From: a virus
Length of the DNA: 18,953 nt
Virus genome (UHGV): UHGV-1695118
Reading direction: 5' to 3' (one strand)
The first letter of the stretch is position 1. The number at the start of each line of letters is the position of its first letter. Of this stretch, positions 2,748 to 17,924 are shown one piece after another. The notes beneath the pieces were generated by a model. The model searched no databases, was not told where the DNA came from, and saw nothing but the letters and a program-made list of their open reading frames with translations. The position numbers and the translations under genes are program-made.

Positions 2748-2870
2748 ATGGTTATTCTGGCGCTTCAATTCAAACTGGCGGTAGCGGAAATGCTTCATGA
2801 TGCCGAAATGTGGAGCGCCGCGAATAAAGCCTTATACATAGTGTTAACAGCGAAGGAGATTAAAGGGTGA
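2748..2870 (+). CDS. Hypothetical small protein (40 aa), translationally coupled to erf
   Basis: ATG at 2748 with GGAGG 7 nt upstream. Its stop TGA overlaps the GTG start of erf (GTGA). Below the ORF-track size cutoff. Confidence 0.4.
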   Translation: MVILALQFKLAVAEMLHDAEMWSAANKALYIVLTAKEIKG

Positions 2871-3508
2871 AAACAGAGTTACATAAAAAACTATGGACGA
2901 TTCAGCAAACGCTGAATGCGCCGAAAAATCAGCGTAATAACTTCGGTGGCTATAATTACAGGTCTGCGGAGGATATTTTAGAGGCGGTTAAACCACTGCT
3001 TCAAAATATCACACTGACTGTTAGTGATGAAATTGTCCTGATCGGCAATCGCTATTATGTGAAAGCAACGGCGACGCTAAGCGACGGTGAAGATGTAATA
3101 GCGGTAACTGCTTATGCCAGGGAGGAAGAAAGCAAGAAGGGTATGGACGCCAGCCAGCTAACAGGAGCAACATCAAGTTACGCGCGTAAATATGCTTTGA
3201 ACGGTTTATTCTGCATAGATGATGCTCGCGATCCTGATACTGATGCTTACGCGAAGCAGACAGGCCTGCAGCAGCGACAACAGAAAAACCCACCAAAACA
3301 ACAACCGCAGCAGAAGAAAGCGCCGCCAAATCCTGATGAAGTATTAGCACGTTTCTGTGATGCAGCAGCGAAAGCGCAGGACGCTAACAAGCTGCGTGAA
3401 ATATTTGGCAAATGCTGGAAATTACTACCGGAAGGATCGGAACATCGAATCAAGGCAAAAGATGTTTATGACATCCGGGTAGCAGAGCTTAACGGGGAGA
3501 TGTGTTAA
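2867..3508 (+). CDS. erf: Erf-family single-strand annealing recombinase
   Basis: 213 aa with GTG start and AAGGAG 8 nt upstream. Segments LNAPKNQ, YRSAEDILEAVKPLL, SDEIVLIGNRYYVKATAT and GATSSYARKY match remembered P22 Erf. Gln/Pro-rich C-terminal linker. Confidence 0.9.
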   Translation: MKTELHKKLWTIQQTLNAPKNQRNNFGGYNYRSAEDILEAVKPLLQNITLTVSDEIVLIGNRYYVKATATLSDGEDVIAVTAYAREEESKKGMDASQLTGATSSYARKYALNGLFCIDDARDPDTDAYAKQTGLQQRQQKNPPKQQPQQKKAPPNPDEVLARFCDAAAKAQDANKLREIFGKCWKLLPEGSEHRIKAKDVYDIRVAELNGEMC

Positions 3509-7408: not shown

Positions 7409-7948
7409 ATGAAAAATGATTACGGCGGCAGCCATACGCCGAAAGAAATAAAAGACTTATGGCAAACGCCAAAACCTGTTTTTAGAGGAATGGATCGTGA
7501 ATTCGAATTCGTCGCGGATGTGGCGGCAAACAAGGCAAACGCATTAATCCCGCGATATATAACCGAAGAAATGGACACGCTCCATTATCCGTGGGGAGCG
7601 GTGGCGATGCCTGGCGAGTATGTCTGGATGAATCCGCCATATTCTAATCCGGGACCATTCGTTGATAAGGCGGCGCTTGAACATCAACGAAATCACATTG
7701 GCTGTGTAATGCTATTGCCCGCTGACATTTCTGTTAGCTGGTTTATGAACGGCGTGGAGACGGCAAACGAATGCCGATTAATCACGCGCGGGCGTCTGGC
7801 GTTTATCAATGCCGCTACTGGTAAGCCAGCAAGCGGAAACAATAAGGGTAGCTTGTTTTTGATCTGGCATCCACGGTGCAGACATAAATGTATTTTCACG
7901 CAGATAACACGTAAAGAGCTATATGCAAGAGGTGCAGAAAATGAGTAA
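7409..7948 (+). CDS. dam: Phage-type DNA N6-adenine methyltransferase (Dam-like)
   Basis: 179 aa. Catalytic motif NPPY in WMNPPYSNPGPF, with a downstream LLPADISVSWF segment typical of the small phage Dam family. AAGGGGG upstream of the ATG. Confidence 0.8.
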   Translation: MKNDYGGSHTPKEIKDLWQTPKPVFRGMDREFEFVADVAANKANALIPRYITEEMDTLHYPWGAVAMPGEYVWMNPPYSNPGPFVDKAALEHQRNHIGCVMLLPADISVSWFMNGVETANECRLITRGRLAFINAATGKPASGNNKGSLFLIWHPRCRHKCIFTQITRKELYARGAENE

Positions 7949-8453: not shown

Positions 8454-8937
8454 CAGGTTATTAGCCTGCGTTTATGTCGCCGTTTTTGTGATCATCAATC
8501 TTATTGTTAATCATTGCGGCCCGTGGGTAATTCCGATCACCACGGTAGCCGCCGTGTGTGTCAATATGATGATCCGTGACCTCCTGTTATATGACGGCGG
8601 CCTGAAATGGTCGGCTACAACATGCGCCGCCGCTGGCGCAATCACGGTGCTGATAAATTACGACGCCGGAATGGTGGCGATCGCGTCATTCGTTGCGGTT
8701 GTTTCCGGTGCACTTATTTCTGGCGGCGTTTACCGGGTTTTGCCTGGTGGCTTTGATTCTAAACGTTGGCCTGCAAATATAGCGTCCGCCATTGGTGATG
8801 CGTTAATTTTTCCTACGCTATCGTTTATGGCGTTTATGCCGGAAATATCAGCTATGCAATTCATCTCAAAAATGGCAGCGGTAACGGTGATCACCATCAT
8901 TATGCGCCGCTATTTCACGTTTGAGGGTAGAAAATGA
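8434..8937 (+). CDS. Multi-pass membrane protein, possibly VUT/YhhQ-family (queuosine-precursor transporter-like)
   Basis: 167 aa from ATG 8434 within ORF-track frame 8392..8937. About 4-5 hydrophobic helices. Segment KRWPANIASAIGDALIFPTLSF resembles the remembered YhhQ segment RRWWLAPTASTLFGNVSDTLAFF. The family call is tentative. Confidence 0.35.
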   Translation: MERVTIDRLLACVYVAVFVIINLIVNHCGPWVIPITTVAAVCVNMMIRDLLLYDGGLKWSATTCAAAGAITVLINYDAGMVAIASFVAVVSGALISGGVYRVLPGGFDSKRWPANIASAIGDALIFPTLSFMAFMPEISAMQFISKMAAVTVITIIMRRYFTFEGRK

Positions 8938-9692
8938 GCAGGGCTAAACATTGGTTAAATAATTGGCTTAGAAGTTGGGTGGTGTGGTCGCTGTACGACG
9001 GCAGCGGGTACGCCGTTAAAGATTGGGCGGAAGCTGGATATAAGTGCTATTGCTTCAACTATGACGGCGCAAATCACGGAGATTATGAAGGCGTTAAAAT
9101 CATTCATCCAAATATTGAATACGTTAACGTCTGGATTGATAGCCATTTCCTGGTAATGTTCTCCCCTGAATTGTCTGTTTATCCAGAGCCTGACATTATC
9201 CTGGGCTTTCCTCCATGCGACGATCTCGCTGTGTCAGGCGCTCGCTGGTTCGTTGATAAATACAGGAAAGATCCTTGTTTTCAGAATAGGGCGGCAAGAA
9301 ACGCAATGTTGGTTGAATCTCTGGCTAACATGTATAACGTGCCGTGGATGGTGGAGAATCCTGTTGGTGTGCTGTCAACGCTATGGCGTAAACCGGATTT
9401 TATCTTCAATCCTTGCGCTTACGGTGGCTACCTGCCGGAAGATGACAAGCATCCTGCTTTCCCTGATGTTTACCCACCGCGCGACGCGTACACGAAGAAA
9501 ACTTGCATATGGTGCGGCAACGGATTCAGGCAGCCGCTTTTTAGACCTGTAGATCTTAACTCTGGTGATAACCCTGGGTGGGCGAAAACCGGAGGCAGGA
9601 CGAAACGAACAAAGATGATCCGCTCACTAACACCGCGTGGCTTTGCCCGTGCTGTATTCCTGGCTAACCATGACCGCGTTTTATCGGACTGA
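8934..9692 (+). CDS. Compact C5-cytosine methyltransferase-like protein
   Basis: 252 aa. ATG overlaps the upstream stop (ATGA). C5-MTase motifs occur in canonical order and spacing: motif I LYDGSG (about aa 20), motif IV GFPPCDDLAVSG with the Pro-Cys catalytic dyad (about aa 92), motif VI MVENPVG (about aa 130). Also carries CIWCGNGF. Short for this family. Confidence 0.5.
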   Translation: MSRAKHWLNNWLRSWVVWSLYDGSGYAVKDWAEAGYKCYCFNYDGANHGDYEGVKIIHPNIEYVNVWIDSHFLVMFSPELSVYPEPDIILGFPPCDDLAVSGARWFVDKYRKDPCFQNRAARNAMLVESLANMYNVPWMVENPVGVLSTLWRKPDFIFNPCAYGGYLPEDDKHPAFPDVYPPRDAYTKKTCIWCGNGFRQPLFRPVDLNSGDNPGWAKTGGRTKRTKMIRSLTPRGFARAVFLANHDRVLSD

Positions 9693-9851: not shown

Positions 9852-10028
9852 ATGTCTTTTGATGATTACCAATGGCATGACGACTATGAACGAGAAAGCG
9901 TTATGCGTGCAATGTGCAATGTATGCAGCACGAAGAAAGGAGGCTGTAACGAGTGCAACGAATGCTTAGAACATTGGCTAAGGGCCGGACACGCCGAAAG
10001 GCTGAACGAAACAGAGAATCAAAAATAA
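9852..10028 (+). CDS. ninF: NinF-like small Cys-rich protein (58 aa)
   Basis: ATG 9852 with AAGGAGAG upstream. Sequence MSFDDYQWHDDYERESVMRAMCNVCSTKKGGCNECNECLEHWLRAGHAERLNETENQK. Positioned immediately upstream of ninG. Below the ORF-track cutoff; the NinF assignment is by position and size. Confidence 0.45.
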   Translation: MSFDDYQWHDDYERESVMRAMCNVCSTKKGGCNECNECLEHWLRAGHAERLNETENQK

Positions 10029-10042
10029 TCGGGGTGGTTTTT

Positions 10043-10648
10043 ATGCAAAACCCTAAAAAACCCATAAGACGCCGTTGCAAATGCTGCGGCGTTTTTTTTG
10101 AGCCTAAATATCACAATCAAACGTGGTGCAGCGATGAATGTCTGGAAGAACTGAAGTTTGACCAGCTATGCCGCGACCGTGAGAAGGCTATGAAGGCTAT
10201 GGAGCGGAAGAAACGCCGTGATAGCCAGAGGGAAGAACGCAACCGGAAGCGTAAACAGTTAAATCCGCGTAGTTATTGGATCAAACAAGTTCAAAATGTA
10301 TTTAACGCCTATATTCGCGAACGTGACGCGCGCTTGCCGTGTATATCTTGCGGGACTTACTACGGTGAGCAATGCGGGTGGGATGCAGGTCATTACAGGA
10401 CGGTAGCCGCCGCCGGACACCTTCGCTTCAACGAGGATAATTGCCATAAGCAATGTAGGCACTGCAACCAGACACTAGACGGCAACATCGGAGGGTATCG
10501 CCCGGCGCTGATTCGAAAAATTGGCCTCGCCAGGGTGGTAGCTCTGGAGAACAACAACGATACGCATAAATGGACGATTGCAGAATGTAAGGAGCTAATA
10601 AACATCTATCAGGCGAAATTGGACGCCTTAAGGAGAAAGGCAGCATGA
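10043..10648 (+). CDS. ninG: NinG / Rap-family recombination protein
   Basis: 201 aa from the internal ATG of ORF-track frame 9953..10648. Cys-rich N-terminus (RRCKCCGVFFEP...WCSDEC) and core (PRSYWIKQ...NAYIRERDARLPCISCG...WDAGHYRT...LRFNEDNCHKQC...) match remembered lambda NinG. Confidence 0.85.
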   Translation: MQNPKKPIRRRCKCCGVFFEPKYHNQTWCSDECLEELKFDQLCRDREKAMKAMERKKRRDSQREERNRKRKQLNPRSYWIKQVQNVFNAYIRERDARLPCISCGTYYGEQCGWDAGHYRTVAAAGHLRFNEDNCHKQCRHCNQTLDGNIGGYRPALIRKIGLARVVALENNNDTHKWTIAECKELINIYQAKLDALRRKAA

Positions 10649-11052
10649 ATGAATATTCTTTTAGCCTGCCTTACCCGCCATCGAATAATCGCTATTACCG
10701 ACATTCGCGCGGTTTTCACTATATCAGCAAAGTGGGGAAGGAATACAGGGAACAAGTAAGAGACATCATCGAGCTATTAAATTTAAATATTAACCTACCT
10801 TGCCGACTGGCAATTGCCATTTACGCCGCGCCGCCGGATAACCGGATCAGAGATCTGGATAATATCCCTAAATGCCTTTTTGACAGCCTTACTTATGCCG
10901 GATTCTGGAGGGATGACGGGCAAATTGACTCAATAAAAATTGTCCGCTGCCGGAAGGTAAAAGGCGGACGCTTGTTTATTAAGATCCGCGAACGCGGCGA
11001 CCTACTACCGGATATTGACGAATACGCGACTAATATGTGGGGTGAGCAATGA
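10645..11052 (+). CDS. rusA: RusA-family Holliday-junction resolvase
   Basis: 135 aa. N-terminus YSFSLPYPPSNNRYYRH, plus DNRIRDLDN and AGFWRDD segments, match the RusA family. ATG overlaps the ninG stop. Confidence 0.88.
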   Translation: MNEYSFSLPYPPSNNRYYRHSRGFHYISKVGKEYREQVRDIIELLNLNINLPCRLAIAIYAAPPDNRIRDLDNIPKCLFDSLTYAGFWRDDGQIDSIKIVRCRKVKGGRLFIKIRERGDLLPDIDEYATNMWGEQ

Positions 11053-11231
11053 AAAACGAAGTTAAAGATCTGCAAATAGATATTCAGCGCGACGAGCGTG
11101 ATTTAGAGACGGTCCGACAAATCCAGGCTTTCCACATGCGCGAATTACTTGCGCTGAAAGAGTTCGAAAGAAAGCTGGTGCAATCCATTTCTGATCGTAA
11201 ACGGCTGGCGGCGCGTTATGAGGGCAAATAA
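11049..11231 (+). CDS. Small charged coiled-coil protein (60 aa)
   Basis: ORF-track ORF translationally coupled on both sides (ATGA with rusA, TAATG with Q). Confidence 0.5.
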   Translation: MKNEVKDLQIDIQRDERDLETVRQIQAFHMRELLALKEFERKLVQSISDRKRLAARYEGK

Positions 11232-11959
11232 TGAATTTAGAATCCATTCTAAAATTCCACTTTCCTAAATCACCGCGATTATCTGACGAAAGCCGGGGCA
11301 CGTCCCCGGACGCTCTTAATACGACGGATGCGCTAACCGCTGCGGGTATGGCGCAATCGCGCGTAGAGCTTGGATATAGCGCTTTTTTAGGGAAGATGGA
11401 ACTATCACAAGCCGAAAAACATAGGGCCGTAGTTTTGCTTACAGAGCGTTTAAGGGCTATGGCGAAAGATTACGAATACGTGATGGAGTTAAACGAGGAT
11501 CAGCGCAATGGACTTATTATTCTTGTTGCCGTTTTCGCGTTTCGGGATTATTGCCAGAGTGCGGCGACCGAAAAAGTTTGCCCTAAGTGCGGCGGCCACG
11601 GGCATTTACCAAATCCATATTGCAAATACACATCGACAATTTGTTCGCGGTGCAACGGCAAAGGCTACGTTAAAAACCATTGCCAACGTTGCAAGGGGCG
11701 CGGAGAAGTACCGGATAAAGCAGCCAGTGAAGCGGCGGAAATGCCAGTATTCAAAACGTGCCAGCATTGCGGCGGGCGCGGGTACTCGCGTTTCCCGGTA
11801 GATCTCGTCCGGCAGGCCGTTAACCAGCTTGTTTTCCCGGTAAGCAGATCAACATGGTGGAAGAAATACCGGGTTTTCTATGAAGACGCCATAGCGGAGC
11901 TATTCAAAGAAGAGGCCCGCGCGGAAAGCGAAATTAAACGAGTGACACGGGGTGAATAA
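11231..11959 (+). CDS. Q: Late-gene antitermination protein Q (lambda Q type)
   Basis: 242 aa. N-terminus MNLESILKFHFPKSPRLSDESRGTSPDALNTTDALTAAGMAQSR parallels the remembered lambda Q start. Four CxxCxGxG zinc-finger motifs. Confidence 0.88.
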   Translation: MNLESILKFHFPKSPRLSDESRGTSPDALNTTDALTAAGMAQSRVELGYSAFLGKMELSQAEKHRAVVLLTERLRAMAKDYEYVMELNEDQRNGLIILVAVFAFRDYCQSAATEKVCPKCGGHGHLPNPYCKYTSTICSRCNGKGYVKNHCQRCKGRGEVPDKAASEAAEMPVFKTCQHCGGRGYSRFPVDLVRQAVNQLVFPVSRSTWWKKYRVFYEDAIAELFKEEARAESEIKRVTRGE

Positions 11960-13560: not shown

Positions 13561-13794
13561 ATGTGTATCTATGAACACAAGCGGGATAAAACCCGCTTTT
13601 TTGTTCGTGCTGGCGTGGCTTACCAGTATCACGACTGCGGATATATCGAGGCGCTTGCTTACGATCTGGATTTCGAACAAGAAAAAGAATGGTTTGATTT
13701 CAAGATTTACCGGAAGCGCAAGCCAACGCGTGACGAACGACACGCTATCCGGGACTTTTTAATCAGCATAGACCGCTGGGAGGCAGACGAATGA
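13561..13794 (+). CDS. Hypothetical protein (77 aa)
   Basis: ATG 13561 with GTGGGG upstream, within ORF-track frame 13516..13794. Confidence 0.5.
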   Translation: MCIYEHKRDKTRFFVRAGVAYQYHDCGYIEALAYDLDFEQEKEWFDFKIYRKRKPTRDERHAIRDFLISIDRWEADE

Positions 13795-14022: not shown

Positions 14023-14271
14023 ATGGACGTTTACGAGGATGTTTACCTGGCACCTTCATCTTATAGCTTTTATTTTCTGATAAATGGAAAGGCTTATAGA
14101 TGCGATTCTGACGGGGTGAGAGAAGAAAAGCTGTTTTGCACTAAAGGATACCTGGATGATTTGGTTTTTGCCGGGATATTTCGTAAACGCCCGGCTAACC
14201 TGGAAGAAGAAATGTTGATTGAGGTAATTAAAAATGAAAATAAGGGTAAGTTATTTCCGGGCGAAAGATAA
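14023..14271 (+). CDS. Hypothetical protein (82 aa)
   Basis: ORF-track ORF; GAGGG upstream. Confidence 0.55.
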   Translation: MDVYEDVYLAPSSYSFYFLINGKAYRCDSDGVREEKLFCTKGYLDDLVFAGIFRKRPANLEEEMLIEVIKNENKGKLFPGER

Positions 14272-15390: not shown

Positions 15391-15416
15391 ATGTGATCTG
15401 TATTACAAGGTTTACG

Positions 15417-15450
15417 AAATGGCATTGTTTCGGCAGTGCCATTTTGTTAT
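15417..15450 (+). terminator. Rho-independent terminator-like hairpin after the paralog array
   Basis: AAATGGCATTG-TTTCGG-CAGTGCCATTT: 11-bp stem with one G-U pair and a 6-nt loop, followed by TGTTAT. Confidence 0.5.
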
Positions 15451-15488
15451 AAAGAAGCTGAAGAGAGAACGATGCGGAGGGTAGAAAA

Positions 15489-15767
15489 ATGAAACGCTGG
15501 ATTAACAAAGAAGTCGAATCTCGCTTAAACGCATTTTGGGAGATGGTGGAGAAAGAAGACCCAGCACACGCTGCAAGCCCTTACCTGAACAACATCGAAT
15601 ATCACTACATTGCAGCAAACAACGCGGAGTTCGAAGAAGAAGGTGGAGCCGACAAGTTCGCACAAAGCAACGCATTCAACAACGCAAACGAAATGATGAT
15701 GGCAGTCATCGAACAGGCAGAGGAAGACTACGAATGCAAATCACTTGAATTCGCACGTATGGCATAA
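15489..15767 (+). CDS. Acidic small protein (92 aa)
   Basis: ORF-track ORF with GGAGGG upstream. Strongly Asp/Glu-rich (EFEEEGGADKF, EQAEEDYE). Confidence 0.6.
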   Translation: MKRWINKEVESRLNAFWEMVEKEDPAHAASPYLNNIEYHYIAANNAEFEEEGGADKFAQSNAFNNANEMMMAVIEQAEEDYECKSLEFARMA

Positions 15768-15777
15768 GGGGGAAACC

Positions 15778-15918
15778 ATGAACGCTAACGCTAAATATCC
15801 GGCCTGGGTTTTCGAACTGTACGCAAGATACTTTGAATTACTGGCACAAGGTGAAGAAGCATTAAGCATTGACGAGTACGCGGAGTGCTTAGGGTTTAAA
15901 GGAGACGAAGAAGCATAA
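15778..15918 (+). CDS. Hypothetical small protein (46 aa)
   Basis: ATG 15778 with AAGGGGG 5 nt upstream. Sequence MNANAKYPAWVFELYARYFELLAQGEEALSIDEYAECLGFKGDEEA. Below the ORF-track cutoff. Confidence 0.45.
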   Translation: MNANAKYPAWVFELYARYFELLAQGEEALSIDEYAECLGFKGDEEA

Positions 15919-15923
15919 AACAC

Positions 15924-15939
15924 GGGGCCGGATGGCCCC
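15924..15939. other. Perfect hairpin GGGGCC-GGAT-GGCCCC in an intergenic spacer
   Basis: 6-bp GC stem with a GGAT loop. No U-tract on the plus strand; a moderately T-rich tract follows on the minus strand. Confidence 0.4.
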
Positions 15940-15961
15940 ATCAAATCAGAAGGGTGTAATC

Positions 15962-16261
15962 ATGAAAAGCGCTAAATTTATTGCTTGCTGTTTTGTTGAA
16001 GTTCCTAACGATGATGTTTTCTGTAATTATGAATTTAAAGACAGCTTAGGCAGATCTCACATTGTTGTTGGCAAACGCGGCGACTGGTTATATATAACCG
16101 ATGACGATATGATTTTTACCAGAAATCAACTTTTTCACATCCACTCAGTAAATAATTATGCGCCAGTTGCCGCTATATCCGTAATGGATATGCACGCTAA
16201 GAAATGGATTGAAAAGGACGATATTAACGAAGCGCGTAGCTTACCTGGTGCGGAGTTTTAA
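15962..16261 (+). CDS. Hypothetical protein (99 aa)
   Basis: ATG 15962 with AAGGGTG upstream, within ORF-track frame 15932..16261. Contains GDWLYITDDD, loosely like the paralog motif. Confidence 0.55.
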   Translation: MKSAKFIACCFVEVPNDDVFCNYEFKDSLGRSHIVVGKRGDWLYITDDDMIFTRNQLFHIHSVNNYAPVAAISVMDMHAKKWIEKDDINEARSLPGAEF

Positions 16262-16264
16262 TTT

Positions 16265-16519
16265 ATGGAAATAATCAAAATATGGCGCGGCAACAGTAAG
16301 GCTGACGGTGAGTTTTGCCGCGTCGTTCAATTCGTAAATTATGGTAGGTTTTACGAGCTACCTTATGACAAAAGGAAAGATGATTTCTATTTAAGCGAGT
16401 CAATCCCGGTGCACAGAAAAATAAAGGCGCTTAGGGGGTTGTTGCGAAGTGGTTTTTATTCTTGCCCTAACCCATTAAACAATCCTGAACTGGTAGCTAT
16501 TTTTTACGAAGGAGAATAG
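16265..16519 (+). CDS. Hypothetical protein (84 aa)
   Basis: ORF-track ORF; GGAG 9 nt upstream. Confidence 0.5.
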   Translation: MEIIKIWRGNSKADGEFCRVVQFVNYGRFYELPYDKRKDDFYLSESIPVHRKIKALRGLLRSGFYSCPNPLNNPELVAIFYEGE

Positions 16520-16522
16520 ACA

Positions 16523-16846
16523 ATGTCTAAATTTATCAGCGTTAAAGTTTTCCGTGGCACTTTACCGAACGAAGAAAGATTAGGACAATTTGCCGGGCAA
16601 CCTAGTGCATGTTTCCGTGTAGCCACTGAAGACGATGCGCATGTTAAATGCTTCCACGTATCGGAACCGCCTTTTAATGCAGACCATCTTGAAGACCCGG
16701 ATAGAATTAAAAGCCTAGTATCTGCCTATCTGATGTTCCAGGGTATCGCTGATATGGAAGTGGAATTGCTTGGCGCTGAACTGGTGGCAGAATACAAAAT
16801 TACTGAAGCAGAAAGCGGAGAATCAAAAATTGAGCGCATCAAATAA
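16523..16846 (+). CDS. Hypothetical acidic protein (107 aa)
   Basis: ORF-track ORF with AAGGAG 8 nt upstream. Confidence 0.65.
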   Translation: MSKFISVKVFRGTLPNEERLGQFAGQPSACFRVATEDDAHVKCFHVSEPPFNADHLEDPDRIKSLVSAYLMFQGIADMEVELLGAELVAEYKITEAESGESKIERIK

Positions 16847-17081
16847 ACCTTACAAAATCCGTTGTAAAGGTGAATACCCTGGCTTTACGACTGGTTGCGA
16901 ATACTTGGGCCACATTGGATGCGGCCCTTTCGGTGAGTTAGGGATGAATACGCTGGACGACGACGGCGACAGCCGGACGCTTGATCTTGATTCTGATGAT
17001 TTCGAATACATCCCGCCAGTAACTTACCGTGCCGTTGATGATTTCCTGGCTGAACATGAAGACGAGGGCGATGATGATTGA
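16830..17081 (+). CDS. Cys-containing protein with a highly acidic C-terminus (83 aa from TTG 16830; ORF-track frame starts at 16770)
   Basis: Start uncertain: both candidates are TTG codons; GGAG lies 9 nt upstream of 16830. C-terminus DDDGDSRTLDLDSDDFEYIPP...AEHEDEGDDD. Confidence 0.4.
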   Translation: MSASNKPYKIRCKGEYPGFTTGCEYLGHIGCGPFGELGMNTLDDDGDSRTLDLDSDDFEYIPPVTYRAVDDFLAEHEDEGDDD

Positions 17082-17268
17082 ATGCCTTATAGCTGTGATT
17101 GTTTTGCTTTATATCGCTGGCGCTATCCTGATGTCTTGTTTTATTAAGTTTAGCGGAGCTGAACCTGGCGGCCTTGAGATTCCTTTTTGGCCTGTGACTG
17201 TGTTTATCGCTTTCTTCGACGCTACGGCAGGGCAGATCAATCGAGCTATTAAGGAGCGCAAGAAATGA
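17074..17268 (+). CDS. Small membrane protein (64 aa)
   Basis: ATG 17074 with GAGGG upstream, within ORF-track frame 17029..17268. Hydrophobic stretch IECLIAVIVLLYIAGAILMSCFI. Confidence 0.5.
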   Translation: MIECLIAVIVLLYIAGAILMSCFIKFSGAEPGGLEIPFWPVTVFIAFFDATAGQINRAIKERKK

Positions 17269-17444
17269 TTGAAGATGGGGTGTACGCAACAGTAGTAGAC
17301 GGGCTGTTTTACCGCGTAGAAGGTGATGATATTCGCATCCGCGTTGGCGGTGGTGAGTGGGTAGCGCCAATCATTAAGACGGCGCGAGAAACAATTAAAA
17401 TATTTCTTGATGCTGGTGAACTGGTGAGGGTTAGCGACCTATGA
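17265..17444 (+). CDS. Hypothetical small protein (59 aa)
   Basis: ATG overlaps the upstream stop (ATGA); AAGGAG 8 nt upstream. Sequence MIEDGVYATVVDGLFYRVEGDDIRIRVGGGEWVAPIIKTAREITKIFLDAGELVRVSDL. Below the ORF-track cutoff. Confidence 0.5.
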   Translation: MIEDGVYATVVDGLFYRVEGDDIRIRVGGGEWVAPIIKTARETIKIFLDAGELVRVSDL

Positions 17445-17617
17445 ACGAGATCGAAGATGGTATCTATTTGCATAAGGTATTTAACATCGTCTATTTACTT
17501 AAAGGTAATAAGGTGATGATAAGACCTGATGACGATCCACATTGGGAATCAAGCGACATGGATCGGCGGCATATGCAAATGTTGCTTGATAACGGCCTGA
17601 TATATAGAAAGCCGTAA
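17441..17617 (+). CDS. Hypothetical small protein (58 aa), possible paralog of the preceding gene
   Basis: ATGA coupling. Sequence MNEIEDGIYLHKVFNIVYLLKGNKVMIRPDDDPHWESSDMDRRHMQMLLDNGLIYRKP shares an IEDG(V/I)Y start with the upstream ORF. Confidence 0.45.
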   Translation: MNEIEDGIYLHKVFNIVYLLKGNKVMIRPDDDPHWESSDMDRRHMQMLLDNGLIYRKP

Positions 17618-17624
17618 GCCGTAT

Positions 17625-17653
17625 TTGTAGGGCGTAAACAAACAGATTAAAAT
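17625..17653 (+). promoter_or_regulatory. Candidate promoter (-35 TTGTAG, 17-bp spacer, -10 TAAAAT) upstream of the lysis genes; possible late PR'-like promoter
   Basis: Read directly; lies 25-50 nt upstream of a strong terminator. Identified by eye only. Confidence 0.35.
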
Positions 17654-17680
17654 ATTTCCTAACAATGCGAAATTGTAATT

Positions 17681-17711
17681 ACCCGGCCCCGCGCCGGGTT
17701 TTTGCTTTGTT
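17681..17711 (+). terminator. Rho-independent terminator immediately upstream of the holin gene (tR'-like position)
   Basis: ACCCGGC-CCCGC-GCCGGGT 7-bp GC-rich stem followed by TTTTGCTTTGTT. Confidence 0.7.
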
Positions 17712-17723
17712 GGAGGAAAATCT

Positions 17724-17924
17724 ATGTTCGACAAAATACGGGGGGCGTGCGCGTATGTGGCTGGGGCCGTAACTGCTTTTTTCGGCGCGATAACCATCAA
17801 TGACATTGCCGTCTTTGTGGGTATCTTATCAACCGTAGGCACATTTGCCGTTAACTATTACTTCAAATCACAGGAGAACAAGCGAGCGCAAGAGGAACAC
17901 GACGCGCGAATGGGGAATAAGTAA
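17724..17924 (+). CDS. Holin, class II pinholin-like (two predicted transmembrane helices)
   Basis: 66 aa with GGAGG 7 nt upstream. Two hydrophobic helices and a charged C-terminal tail. Immediately precedes the SAR endolysin, as in phage 21. Confidence 0.75.
   Translation: MFDKIRGACAYVAGAVTAFFGAITINDIAVFVGILSTVGTFAVNYYFKSQENKRAQEEHDARMGNK

What the first reader, a model, noticed from the sequence alone, without database searches (positions are those of the whole stretch)
15489..17081. Strongly acidic small proteins as candidate DNA mimics
The products of 15489-15767 (EFEEEGGADKF, EQAEEDYE), 16523-16846 and 16830-17081 (C-terminus DDDGDSRTLDLDSDDFEY...EHEDEGDDD) are very rich in Asp and Glu. 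Ocr- and ArdA-type anti-restriction proteins and some anti-CRISPR proteins are small acidic DNA mimics.
Basis: inference. Interest (0 to 1): 0.5.

Follow-up and report, generated by a model that had tools for sequence, protein, structure and literature searches.

The report
Acidic small phage proteins, mimicry unproven
Three small genes in an E. coli prophage really do encode acidic proteins, but only one is as acidic as a proven DNA mimic, none resembles a known anti-restriction protein, and their function is still unknown.

Summary
The window is the early-to-lysis region of a temperate coliphage of the mEp021/mEpimmI group, about 88% identical to mEp010, mEp554 and MagusPhagus. All three ORFs are real genes: each has a full-length PHROG match of unknown function and dN/dS of 0.14-0.39.

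Their acidity differs.
- C (16830-17081, TTG start, 83 aa) has net charge -15 and pI 4.03. It is the most acidic of 48 window genes and falls in the range of T7 Ocr and Gp5.9.
- A (15489-15767, 92 aa) has net charge -11 and ranks third.
- B (16523-16846, 107 aa) has net charge -7, ranks ninth and is ordinary.
- An unlisted 46-aa gene (15778-15918) ranks second.

The two modelled folds differ from each other. A is a generic helical bundle shared with lytic Vequintavirus phages. C is an SH3-like beta-barrel followed by an acidic helix and a disordered D/E tail. B could not be modelled.

DNA mimicry remains conceivable for C only. The precedent is CarS, an acidic SH3-like operator mimic. This is an inference from fold and charge.

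The parts
15414..15447 (+). Terminator-like hairpin in the 98-nt gap upstream of gene A
   Evidence: RNA fold of 15391-15488 gives a ~15-bp stem followed by a U-rich tract (-26.2 kcal/mol, z -3.2). The homologous position in mEp554 is annotated as Rho-independent terminator T10.
15489..15767 (+). Gene A: 92 aa, net -11, pI 4.44, predicted four-helix protein. Flexible gene shared with lytic Vequintavirus phages.
15778..15918 (+). Unlisted 46-aa acidic gene (net -7, pI 4.04), second most acidic product of the window
   Evidence: phrog_22232 matched full length, E 1e-34. Charge ranking.
16523..16846 (+). Gene B: 107 aa, net -7, pI 4.89, not unusually acidic. It is the fastest-evolving of the nine genes compared, and its last 17 nt overlap the start of C.
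   Evidence: phrog_23107 matched full length, E 1e-61. 212 homologues, the 120 listed all E. coli/Shigella or unnamed metagenome sequences and nearly all 107 aa. Across the family net charge is -12 to -3, median -6. Invariant residues are mostly hydrophobic or structural. dN/dS is 0.39 overall and 0.57 for residues 52-80.
16817..16832 (+). Shine-Dalgarno (GGAG, 16817-16820) and invariant TTG start codon (16830-16832) of gene C, inside the 3' end of gene B
   Evidence: TTG and the purine-rich SD are conserved in every related locus. RefSeq/PGAP instead starts the gene at Met39.
16830..17081 (+). Gene C: 83 aa, net -15, pI 4.03. SH3-like five-stranded beta-barrel, then helix 66-77, then a disordered acidic tail.
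16950..17078 (+). Acidic module of C (residues 41-83): distal hairpin DDDGD, the DLDSDDFEYIPP segment, the amphipathic acidic helix and the DEGDDD tail. Net -16 over 43 residues.
   Evidence: Charge. Residues 43-65 are the most constrained part (dN/dS 0.06), while the helix and tail run at 0.29 but stay acidic. Short 56-58 aa relatives keep the barrel and the acidic hairpin (DDDGD or DDDDE in two of three) but lack the helix and tail.
17648..17699 (+). Context: conserved -10-like TAAAAT, an invariant leader and a strong intrinsic terminator (17681-17699) immediately upstream of the holin gene. This is probably the late promoter/terminator unit, which would place A-C upstream of the late operon.
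   Evidence: Terminator scan. RNA fold -33.6 kcal/mol, z -3.2. Near-invariant across 43 sequences (the window plus 42 related loci) including mEp021. mEp021 annotates TERM_5 (score 100) at this position. The promoter assignment is inferred.

Best explanation
These are separate small accessory genes, not a set of related DNA mimics. They lie in the long array of small ORFs between the Q-like antiterminator and the lysis cassette of an mEpimmI-type temperate coliphage.

Shown:
- All three are expressed-type genes under purifying selection.
- All are dispensable for the phage group.
- A and C have unrelated predicted folds. A is a helical bundle. C is an SH3-like barrel with an acidic helix and tail. 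B is unmodelled; its sequence suggests a mixed alpha/beta protein.
- None belongs to the Ocr, ArdA or any other described family.
- Only C reaches the charge density of proven mimics. A and the unlisted 46-aa neighbour come closer than B, which is ordinary.

Inferred:
- They are transcribed as distal, antitermination-dependent genes of the early-right operon. This follows from the conserved promoter-like element plus strong terminator directly before the holin gene.
- They act by binding other proteins.
- For C, the mechanism I consider most likely is electrostatic occlusion. The conserved acidic face of the barrel (DDDGD hairpin, DLDSDD-FEYIPP) together with the acidic helix and tail docks onto a basic, nucleic-acid-binding surface of a host or phage protein and competes with its DNA or RNA ligand. 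The SH3-like antirepressor CarS works this way on the CarA recognition helix. The target of C is unknown.
- I put the mimic-type mechanism at about 0.2-0.25 for C, about 0.1 for A and under 0.05 for B.
For: Context. The window is ~88% identical to mEp010, mEp554 and MagusPhagus. Gene order is cI, Erf, two DNA methyltransferases, NinG/Rap, RusA, Q-like, the small ORFs, then holin, lysozyme and Rz.

Genes are real. Full-length PHROG matches. dN/dS 0.16, 0.39 and 0.14.

Charge. C is at -0.18 per residue, against Ocr -0.24 and Gp5.9 -0.15. Residues 43-65 of C are under the strongest constraint (dN/dS 0.06), and 16 of its 21 acidic positions stay acidic in >=90% of homologues.

Accessory status. 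The DNA searches show the region missing from mEp021 and mEp515, the C search finds no match in mEp021, mEp013 or mEp515, and the mEp021 annotation of the Q-to-holin interval shows no gene of matching size. A is present in ~17 of 45 loci.

Operon position. Conserved promoter-like element and terminator just before the holin.

Precedent. CarS1 is 86 aa, pI 4.1, SH3-like, and mimics operator DNA (PMC2926617).
Against:
- The C family is very narrow, with only 15 hits among 1.84 billion representatives. Conservation of acidic positions across 75-95% identical sequences therefore carries little weight.
- Short relatives of C keep an acidic hairpin (DDDGD or DDDDE in two of three) without the tail. 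Part of the acidity is thus a structural feature of this small barrel family and not evidence of mimicry.
- Expression timing is inferred from sequence motifs only.
Confidence: 0.45

Rival explanations
1. One reading: the three proteins are Ocr/ArdA-type anti-restriction DNA mimics, or anti-CRISPRs, that block type I R-M, BREX or Cas effectors.
For: C matches proven mimics in charge density and pI. A is nearly as acidic as T7 Gp5.9. All three are dispensable, patchily distributed accessory genes. A is also carried by lytic Vequintavirus phages, inside arrays of small hypothetical genes.
Against: - There are no Pfam or NCBIfam hits to ocr, ArdA, Acr or any other family, even at E<=1.
- There are no PDB sequence relatives.
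- B is not unusually acidic, and its invariant residues are mostly hydrophobic or structural.
- The genes lie after Q, behind at least two terminator-like hairpins, not in a first-expressed position.
- No HTH/aca-like neighbour was found.
- C is absent from plasmids.
- The phage already carries two DNA methyltransferases.
- E. coli K-12 phages mEp021, mEp013 and mEp515 manage without these genes.
Confidence: 0.1
2. The acidity is incidental. C is one more member of the widespread family of ~60-aa SH3-like phage proteins, and A and B are ordinary small phage proteins. Their roles would be in phage development (replication, regulation, lysis timing) or as adaptors. The acidic tail would serve solubility or an intramolecular or phage-internal contact, not nucleic-acid mimicry.
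For: Small acidic proteins are common. Eight of the 48 window genes have pI below 4.6, and the T7 proteins gp6.5 and gp1.2, not among the known mimics, are as acidic as B. Short relatives of C share an acidic hairpin (DDDGD or DDDDE in two of three), so it is a fold feature. All BFVD neighbours are uncharacterised. The structurally similar Bas11 Gp54 is non-essential and of unknown function (PMC11578894). The genes form a tightly overlapping chain running up to the lysis cassette. A neighbour in the same array, homologous to mEp021_41, is annotated as a virion protein.
Against: The helix and tail are kept acidic throughout the C family, and the acidic 43-65 segment is the most constrained part of the protein. 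Both point to a functional acidic surface. A net charge of -16 over 43 residues is far beyond what solubility requires.
Confidence: 0.35
3. C is a divalent-cation (Ca2+/Mg2+) binding protein. The two DxDxD-type stretches (D43-D45-D47 and D52-D54-D56) would form metal sites.
For: The motifs DDDGD and DLDSD are nearly invariant and lie in loops of the model.
Against: Neither stretch matches the canonical DxDxDG loop. No Pfam calcium-binding family is hit. This rests on pattern resemblance only.
Confidence: 0.05

Closest known systems
T7 Ocr (gp0.3) and ArdA anti-restriction DNA mimics
   Same: They are small, highly acidic proteins of mobile elements. C has pI 4.03 and 25% D/E, against Ocr at pI 3.90 and 29% D/E.
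CarS antirepressor of Myxococcus xanthus (PDB 2KSS)
   Same: CarS1 is 86 aa with pI 4.1 and a five-stranded SH3-like fold. An apolar pocket rimmed by acidic residues sequesters a repressor's DNA-recognition helix, so it works as an operator-DNA mimic (PMC2926617). C is 83 aa with pI 4.03 and an SH3-like fold. It has conserved hydrophobic residues (L51, L53, F58, Y60, I61, P62, P63) embedded among Asp and Glu.
Small SH3-like phage proteins of unknown function (e.g. Bas11 Gp54; Escherichia phage LL5 A0A2Z4Q2J7)
   Different: C carries an additional amphipathic acidic helix and a D/E tail that the short relatives lack. Gp54 is six-stranded, and its only known property is that it triggers CapRel(SJ46) (PMC11578894).
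T7 Gp5.9 (RecBCD inhibitor) and other very small acidic phage inhibitors
   Same: Similar size and charge density. Gp5.9 is 52 aa at -0.15 per residue; A is -0.12, C -0.18 and the 46-aa neighbour -0.15.
   Different: No sequence similarity. No evidence of any interaction with RecBCD.

Membership tests
Ocr (T7 gp0.3) family | Sequence membership (Pfam ocr model / similarity to T7 gp0.3) | tested here: not met
   Pfam scan at E<=1 gives no ocr hit for A, B or C. BLASTP against T7 gp0.3 gives only a 10-residue chance match, E 1.9.
Ocr (T7 gp0.3) family | Elongated helical fold with a DNA-like array of surface carboxylates | tested here: inconclusive
Ocr (T7 gp0.3) family | Very high net negative charge (34 acidic and 6 basic residues in 116-117 aa) | tested here: inconclusive
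   C is at -0.18 per residue against -0.24 for Ocr. A is at -0.12 and B at -0.07. C approaches the Ocr value, A is intermediate, and B does not.
Ocr (T7 gp0.3) family | Inhibition of type I R-M / BREX in vivo | not testable with these tools
   Requires plating assays.
ArdA family | Sequence membership (Pfam ArdA / NCBIfam models) | tested here: not met
   No hits at E<=1 in Pfam or NCBIfam. No PDB sequence hits.
ArdA family | Location in the leading region of conjugative plasmids or transposons | tested here: not met
   C has no tblastn match in 72,556 plasmids. The B-C module is chromosomal (prophage) in all 34 E. coli genomes that carry it.
Anti-CRISPR (Acr) loci | Adjacent aca (HTH regulator) gene, or membership of a described Acr family | tested here: not met
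   None of the ten ORFs from 15489 to 17924 has an HTH or any Acr/Aca Pfam hit. NCBIfam gives none for the six ORFs tested.
CarS-type SH3-like operator-DNA mimic | Five-stranded SH3-like beta fold with strongly acidic composition | tested here: met
CarS-type SH3-like operator-DNA mimic | Homology to CarS | tested here: not met
CarS-type SH3-like operator-DNA mimic | Binds the DNA-recognition element of a specific repressor | not testable with these tools
   Requires interaction assays or complex prediction.
Small SH3-like phage protein family (uncharacterised; LL5 A0A2Z4Q2J7-like) | Sequence and fold similarity of the barrel | tested here: met
   Foldseek E 2.6e-5, 46% identity, TM 0.83. The family profile finds 56-58 aa relatives at E 3e-5 to 1e-4.

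The most novel reading that the evidence does not exclude
Gene C would be a new kind of minimal nucleic-acid mimic: an SH3-like barrel with a conserved acidic face plus an acidic helix and tail. It would be translationally coupled to the fast-evolving partner B. Together they would form a previously unrecognised anti-defence or antirepressor module of mEpimmI prophages, analogous to CarS but phage-borne and unrelated in sequence. Gene A, shared with Vequintavirus, would be a second, independent inhibitor.
Probability: 0.1. Interest if true: 0.55.

Novelty: new member of a known kind. Interest (0 to 1): 0.2.

Why it matters
If C, or A, were shown to block a DNA-binding defence or regulatory protein, it would add a new fold to the short list of DNA mimics. 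It would also assign a function to a family of small SH3-like phage proteins that is widespread but uncharacterised.

As things stand the result is mainly corrective. Composition alone over-called one protein (B) and missed another (15778-15918). The proteins are catalogued hypothetical accessory proteins of a described phage group. One practical by-product is that RefSeq truncates gene C to its acidic C-terminal 45-46 residues by missing the conserved TTG start.

Tried and rejected
1. Family searches (Pfam, NCBIfam) and PDB sequence searches, with single sequences (A, B, C) and family profiles (B, C), found nothing significant. The only hits were designed-repeat or compositional matches.

2. 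The profile search of the C family against 1.84 billion representatives gave only 15 hits. The long ones look like compositional matches (not checked). No informative domain fusions turned up.

3. I asked whether B and C, or B and 16265-16519, are paralogues. hhalign probabilities were 6% and 2%, which is not significant.

4. Chimeric database proteins first looked like evidence for exchangeable homologous halves. These were B N-terminus + C C-terminus, 16265 N-terminus + C, C N-terminus + the 17441 C-terminus, and C N-terminus + the Q C-terminus. They are better read as in-frame deletion fusions between neighbouring genes, so I did not use them as evidence.

5. Non-coding or chance ORFs are rejected on dN/dS and full-length PHROG matches.

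6. I considered a resemblance between DSDDFEYIPP and the SSB C-terminal tip. I rejected it because the motif is internal and not at the C-terminus (own knowledge of SSB-Ct, not tested).

7. The literature gave nothing. The mEpimmI paper does not mention acidic, anti-restriction or mimic proteins. There is no paper on the Bas56 homologue of A, and none linking Vequintavirinae to DNA mimics.

Full report
**What the window is**

The 18.9-kb window is about 88% identical at the DNA level to Escherichia phages mEp010, mEp554, mEp044 and MagusPhagus, with mEp021 a more partial match. These belong to the recently described mEpimmI group of Nus-dependent, non-lambdoid temperate coliphages (PMC11893012).

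PHROG and Pfam matches give the following gene order on the + strand:
- cI-type repressor (1280-1927)
- Erf (2867-3508)
- two DNA methyltransferases (7409-7948 and 8934-9692)
- NinG/Rap (9953-10648)
- RusA (10645-11052)
- Q-like antiterminator (11231-11959)
- about 25 small ORFs
- holin (17724-17924), lysozyme and Rz

The finding lies in the last third of the small-ORF array.

**Observation check**

The three ORFs and the quoted peptides are present.

| Gene | Coordinates | Length | D/E | K/R | Net | pI | Net per residue | Rank of 48 |
|---|---|---|---|---|---|---|---|---|
| A | 15489-15767 | 92 aa | 19 | 8 | -11 | 4.44 | -0.120 | 3 |
| B | 16523-16846 | 107 aa | 19 | 12 | -7 | 4.89 | -0.065 | 9 |
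| C | 16830-17081 | 83 aa | 21 | 6 | -15 | 4.03 | -0.181 | 1 |
| unlisted | 15778-15918 | 46 aa | 10 | 3 | -7 | 4.04 | -0.152 | 2 |

The median net charge per residue over the 48 candidate genes is +0.008, with sd 0.064.

Computed the same way, T7 Ocr is -0.24 per residue (34 D/E, 6 K/R, pI 3.90). T7 Gp5.9 is -0.15 (pI 4.08). The T7 proteins gp6.5 and gp1.2, which are not among the known mimics, are about -0.05 to -0.07. The Ocr composition agrees with PMC4872106.

So C is genuinely in the mimic range, A is borderline and B is ordinary. C's charge is concentrated: residues 1-40 are net +1, and residues 41-83 are net -16.

**The ORFs are real genes**

- Each matches a PHROG of unknown function over its full length: phrog_7287, phrog_23107 and phrog_25234.
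- I used 43 IMG/VR loci found with the B family plus annotated relatives. Pairwise Nei-Gojobori dN/dS is 0.16 for A, 0.39 for B and 0.14 for C. Holin is 0.07 and lysozyme 0.11.
- For C, the N-terminal 42 residues are also constrained (0.11-0.16).
- The TTG start with its GGAG/GGGGG Shine-Dalgarno is invariant in every locus.
- The predicted barrel needs the N-terminal strands.

RefSeq/PGAP nevertheless annotates only a 45-46 aa product from Met39.

**Distribution**

- C has 59 cluster representatives; every one that carries a source name is from E. coli or an uncultured phage. It has only 15 hits among 1.84 billion representative proteins. It occurs in four sequenced phages and in no plasmid.
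- The B-C pair is found in at least 34 of 5,426 complete E. coli genomes. It is always single-copy and chromosomal.
- B has 212 homologues at 65-94% identity among the 120 listed, nearly all 107 aa.
- A has few close relatives in prophages. It also occurs at about 61% identity in 126 phage records, mostly lytic Vequintavirus such as Bas56 AlexBoehm, inside arrays of small hypothetical genes.
- mEp021 and mEp515 match only a short stretch of this 2-kb region, and the C search finds no match in mEp021, mEp013 or mEp515. The mEp021 Q-to-holin interval holds only eight small genes, none of matching size.
- A is present in only about 17 of 45 loci that carry B.

All three are therefore dispensable, flexible genes.

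**Structure**

C was modelled with AF2 from 57 sequences, giving pLDDT 85. It has five strands (7-12, 24-31, 37-42, 48-51, 58-61), a helix at 66-77 and a low-confidence acidic tail.
- Foldseek against BFVD returns only uncharacterised 58-65 aa phage proteins. The best is Escherichia phage LL5 at 46% identity.
- Short 56-58 aa relatives found by the profile search keep the barrel. Two of the three keep an acidic hairpin (DDDGD or DDDDE). All three lack the helix and tail.

Part of C's acidity is therefore a feature of this small barrel family. The acidic helix and tail are specific additions.

Within C, residues 43-65 (DDDGDSRTLDLDSDDFEYIPPVT) are the most constrained (dN/dS 0.06). The helix and tail run at 0.29 but remain acidic.

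Its invariant residues are mostly hydrophobic or structural. Its central segment, residues 52-80, evolves fastest (dN/dS 0.57).

**Membership tests**

- There is no Pfam or NCBIfam hit to ocr, ArdA, Acr or anything else, even at E<=1.
- There is no PDB sequence relative, with single sequences (A, B, C) or with profiles (B, C).
- BLASTP against T7 Ocr, Gp2, Gp5.5 and Gp5.9 gives only chance matches.
- There is no HTH neighbour of the aca type.

Membership of any described anti-restriction or anti-CRISPR family is not supported.

**Expression context (inferred)**

Directly upstream of the holin gene lies an invariant -10-like TAAAAT, then a conserved leader with further -10-like elements, then a strong intrinsic terminator at 17681-17699. 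This unit is near-identical across 43 sequences, the window plus 42 related loci, including mEp021. mEp021 annotates TERM_5 at the same position.

This looks like a lambda-style late promoter/terminator unit. It would place A-C upstream of the late operon, at the distal end of the antitermination-dependent early-right transcript, behind terminator-like hairpins at 13579-13598 and 15414-15447.

Genes B, C, 17071-17268, 17265-17444 and 17441-17617 overlap by 4-17 nt, which suggests translational coupling. Delayed-early expression does not exclude an anti-defence role. From my own knowledge, lambda Gam and Ral are similarly placed. It is, however, unlike the first-expressed position of Ocr or ArdA.

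**Mechanism**

What is shown:
- The acidic products are separate genes, and the two that could be modelled have unrelated folds.
- Only C, and to a lesser degree A and the 46-aa neighbour, have unusual charge.

What I infer as most likely is that they are protein-binding accessory factors.

For C there is a specific precedent. CarS of Myxococcus xanthus is 86 aa with pI 4.1 and an SH3-like fold. It uses an apolar pocket rimmed by acidic residues to sequester the DNA-recognition helix of a repressor, acting as an operator-DNA mimic (PMC2926617). C has the same size, fold class and pI. It also has conserved hydrophobic residues (L51, L53, F58, Y60, I61, P62, P63) embedded in Asp and Glu. This is analogy only, because no homology is detectable.

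My estimates for a nucleic-acid-mimic mechanism are about 0.2-0.25 for C, about 0.1 for A and under 0.05 for B. The main rival, at about 0.35, is that the acidity is incidental to an ordinary small phage adaptor or regulator.

**Verdict**

It holds for C, is moderate for A and fails for B, and one acidic gene was missed. The DNA-mimic interpretation is neither supported nor excluded.

These are catalogued hypothetical accessory proteins of a described phage group. Interest is low unless experiments show that C or A blocks a DNA-binding protein.

Noticed in passing
window 15778-15918 (+): A 46-aa gene (phrog_22232) with net charge -7 and pI 4.04 is the second most acidic product of the window. 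It sits between genes A and B but was not listed in the finding.
   Followed up: partly
window 16817-16832 and 16944; locus L047 2922-3059: RefSeq/PGAP annotates gene C only from internal Met39 (45-46 aa). The upstream TTG with its SD is invariant in all related loci, residues 1-42 are under purifying selection, and the N-terminal strands are needed for the predicted barrel. The public annotation is probably truncated.
   Followed up: yes
window 17640-17723: An invariant -10-like TAAAAT, a conserved leader with further -10-like elements and a strong terminator (17681-17699) lie just before the holin gene. The unit is conserved across 43 sequences (the window plus 42 related loci), including mEp021. 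It looks like a lambda-type late promoter/tR' unit for the Q-like antiterminator encoded 5.7 kb upstream.
   Followed up: partly
window 17265-17444 and 17441-17617 (+): Two adjacent small genes are tandem paralogues (29% identity, E 4e-6). Both match phrog_15318.
   Followed up: partly
proteins P0043, P0044, P0049, P0052 (relatives of window 16265-17617 and 11900-11959): Public databases hold in-frame chimeras joining halves of neighbouring small genes: B N-terminus + C C-terminus, 16265 + C, C + 17441, and C + the Q C-terminus. This suggests frequent deletions within this gene array in prophages.
   Followed up: partly
window 15489-15767; locus L003 4001-4273: Gene A's family is shared between temperate mEpimmI prophages and lytic ~135-kb Vequintavirus phages (126 records, ~61% identity). 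This is an example of a small gene exchanged between very different phage lifestyles.
   Followed up: partly
window 7409-7948 and 8934-9692 (+): The phage encodes two DNA methyltransferases (phrog_111 and phrog_757). The second corresponds to mEp021's putative cytosine methyltransferase. Self-methylation is an established way to evade restriction.
   Followed up: no
window 14023-14271 (+); locus L049 3538-3786: This 82-aa product of the same small-gene array is 70% identical to mEp021_41, which is annotated 'virion structural protein'. That is an unexpected location for a virion component.
   Followed up: no
window 15922-15941: A GC-rich hairpin (ACGGGGCC-GGAT-GGCCCCAT) sits between 15778-15918 and 15962-16261. 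It scores as a terminator only on the minus strand, where no gene is evident. Its fold z-score is only -1.6.
   Followed up: no
window 16523-16846, residues 52-80: The central segment of B has the highest dN/dS in the region (0.57) and exists as several distinct allelic forms. N- and C-terminal motifs such as KCFHVSEPPF and IERIK are invariant; IERIK overlaps the start of gene C.
   Followed up: partly
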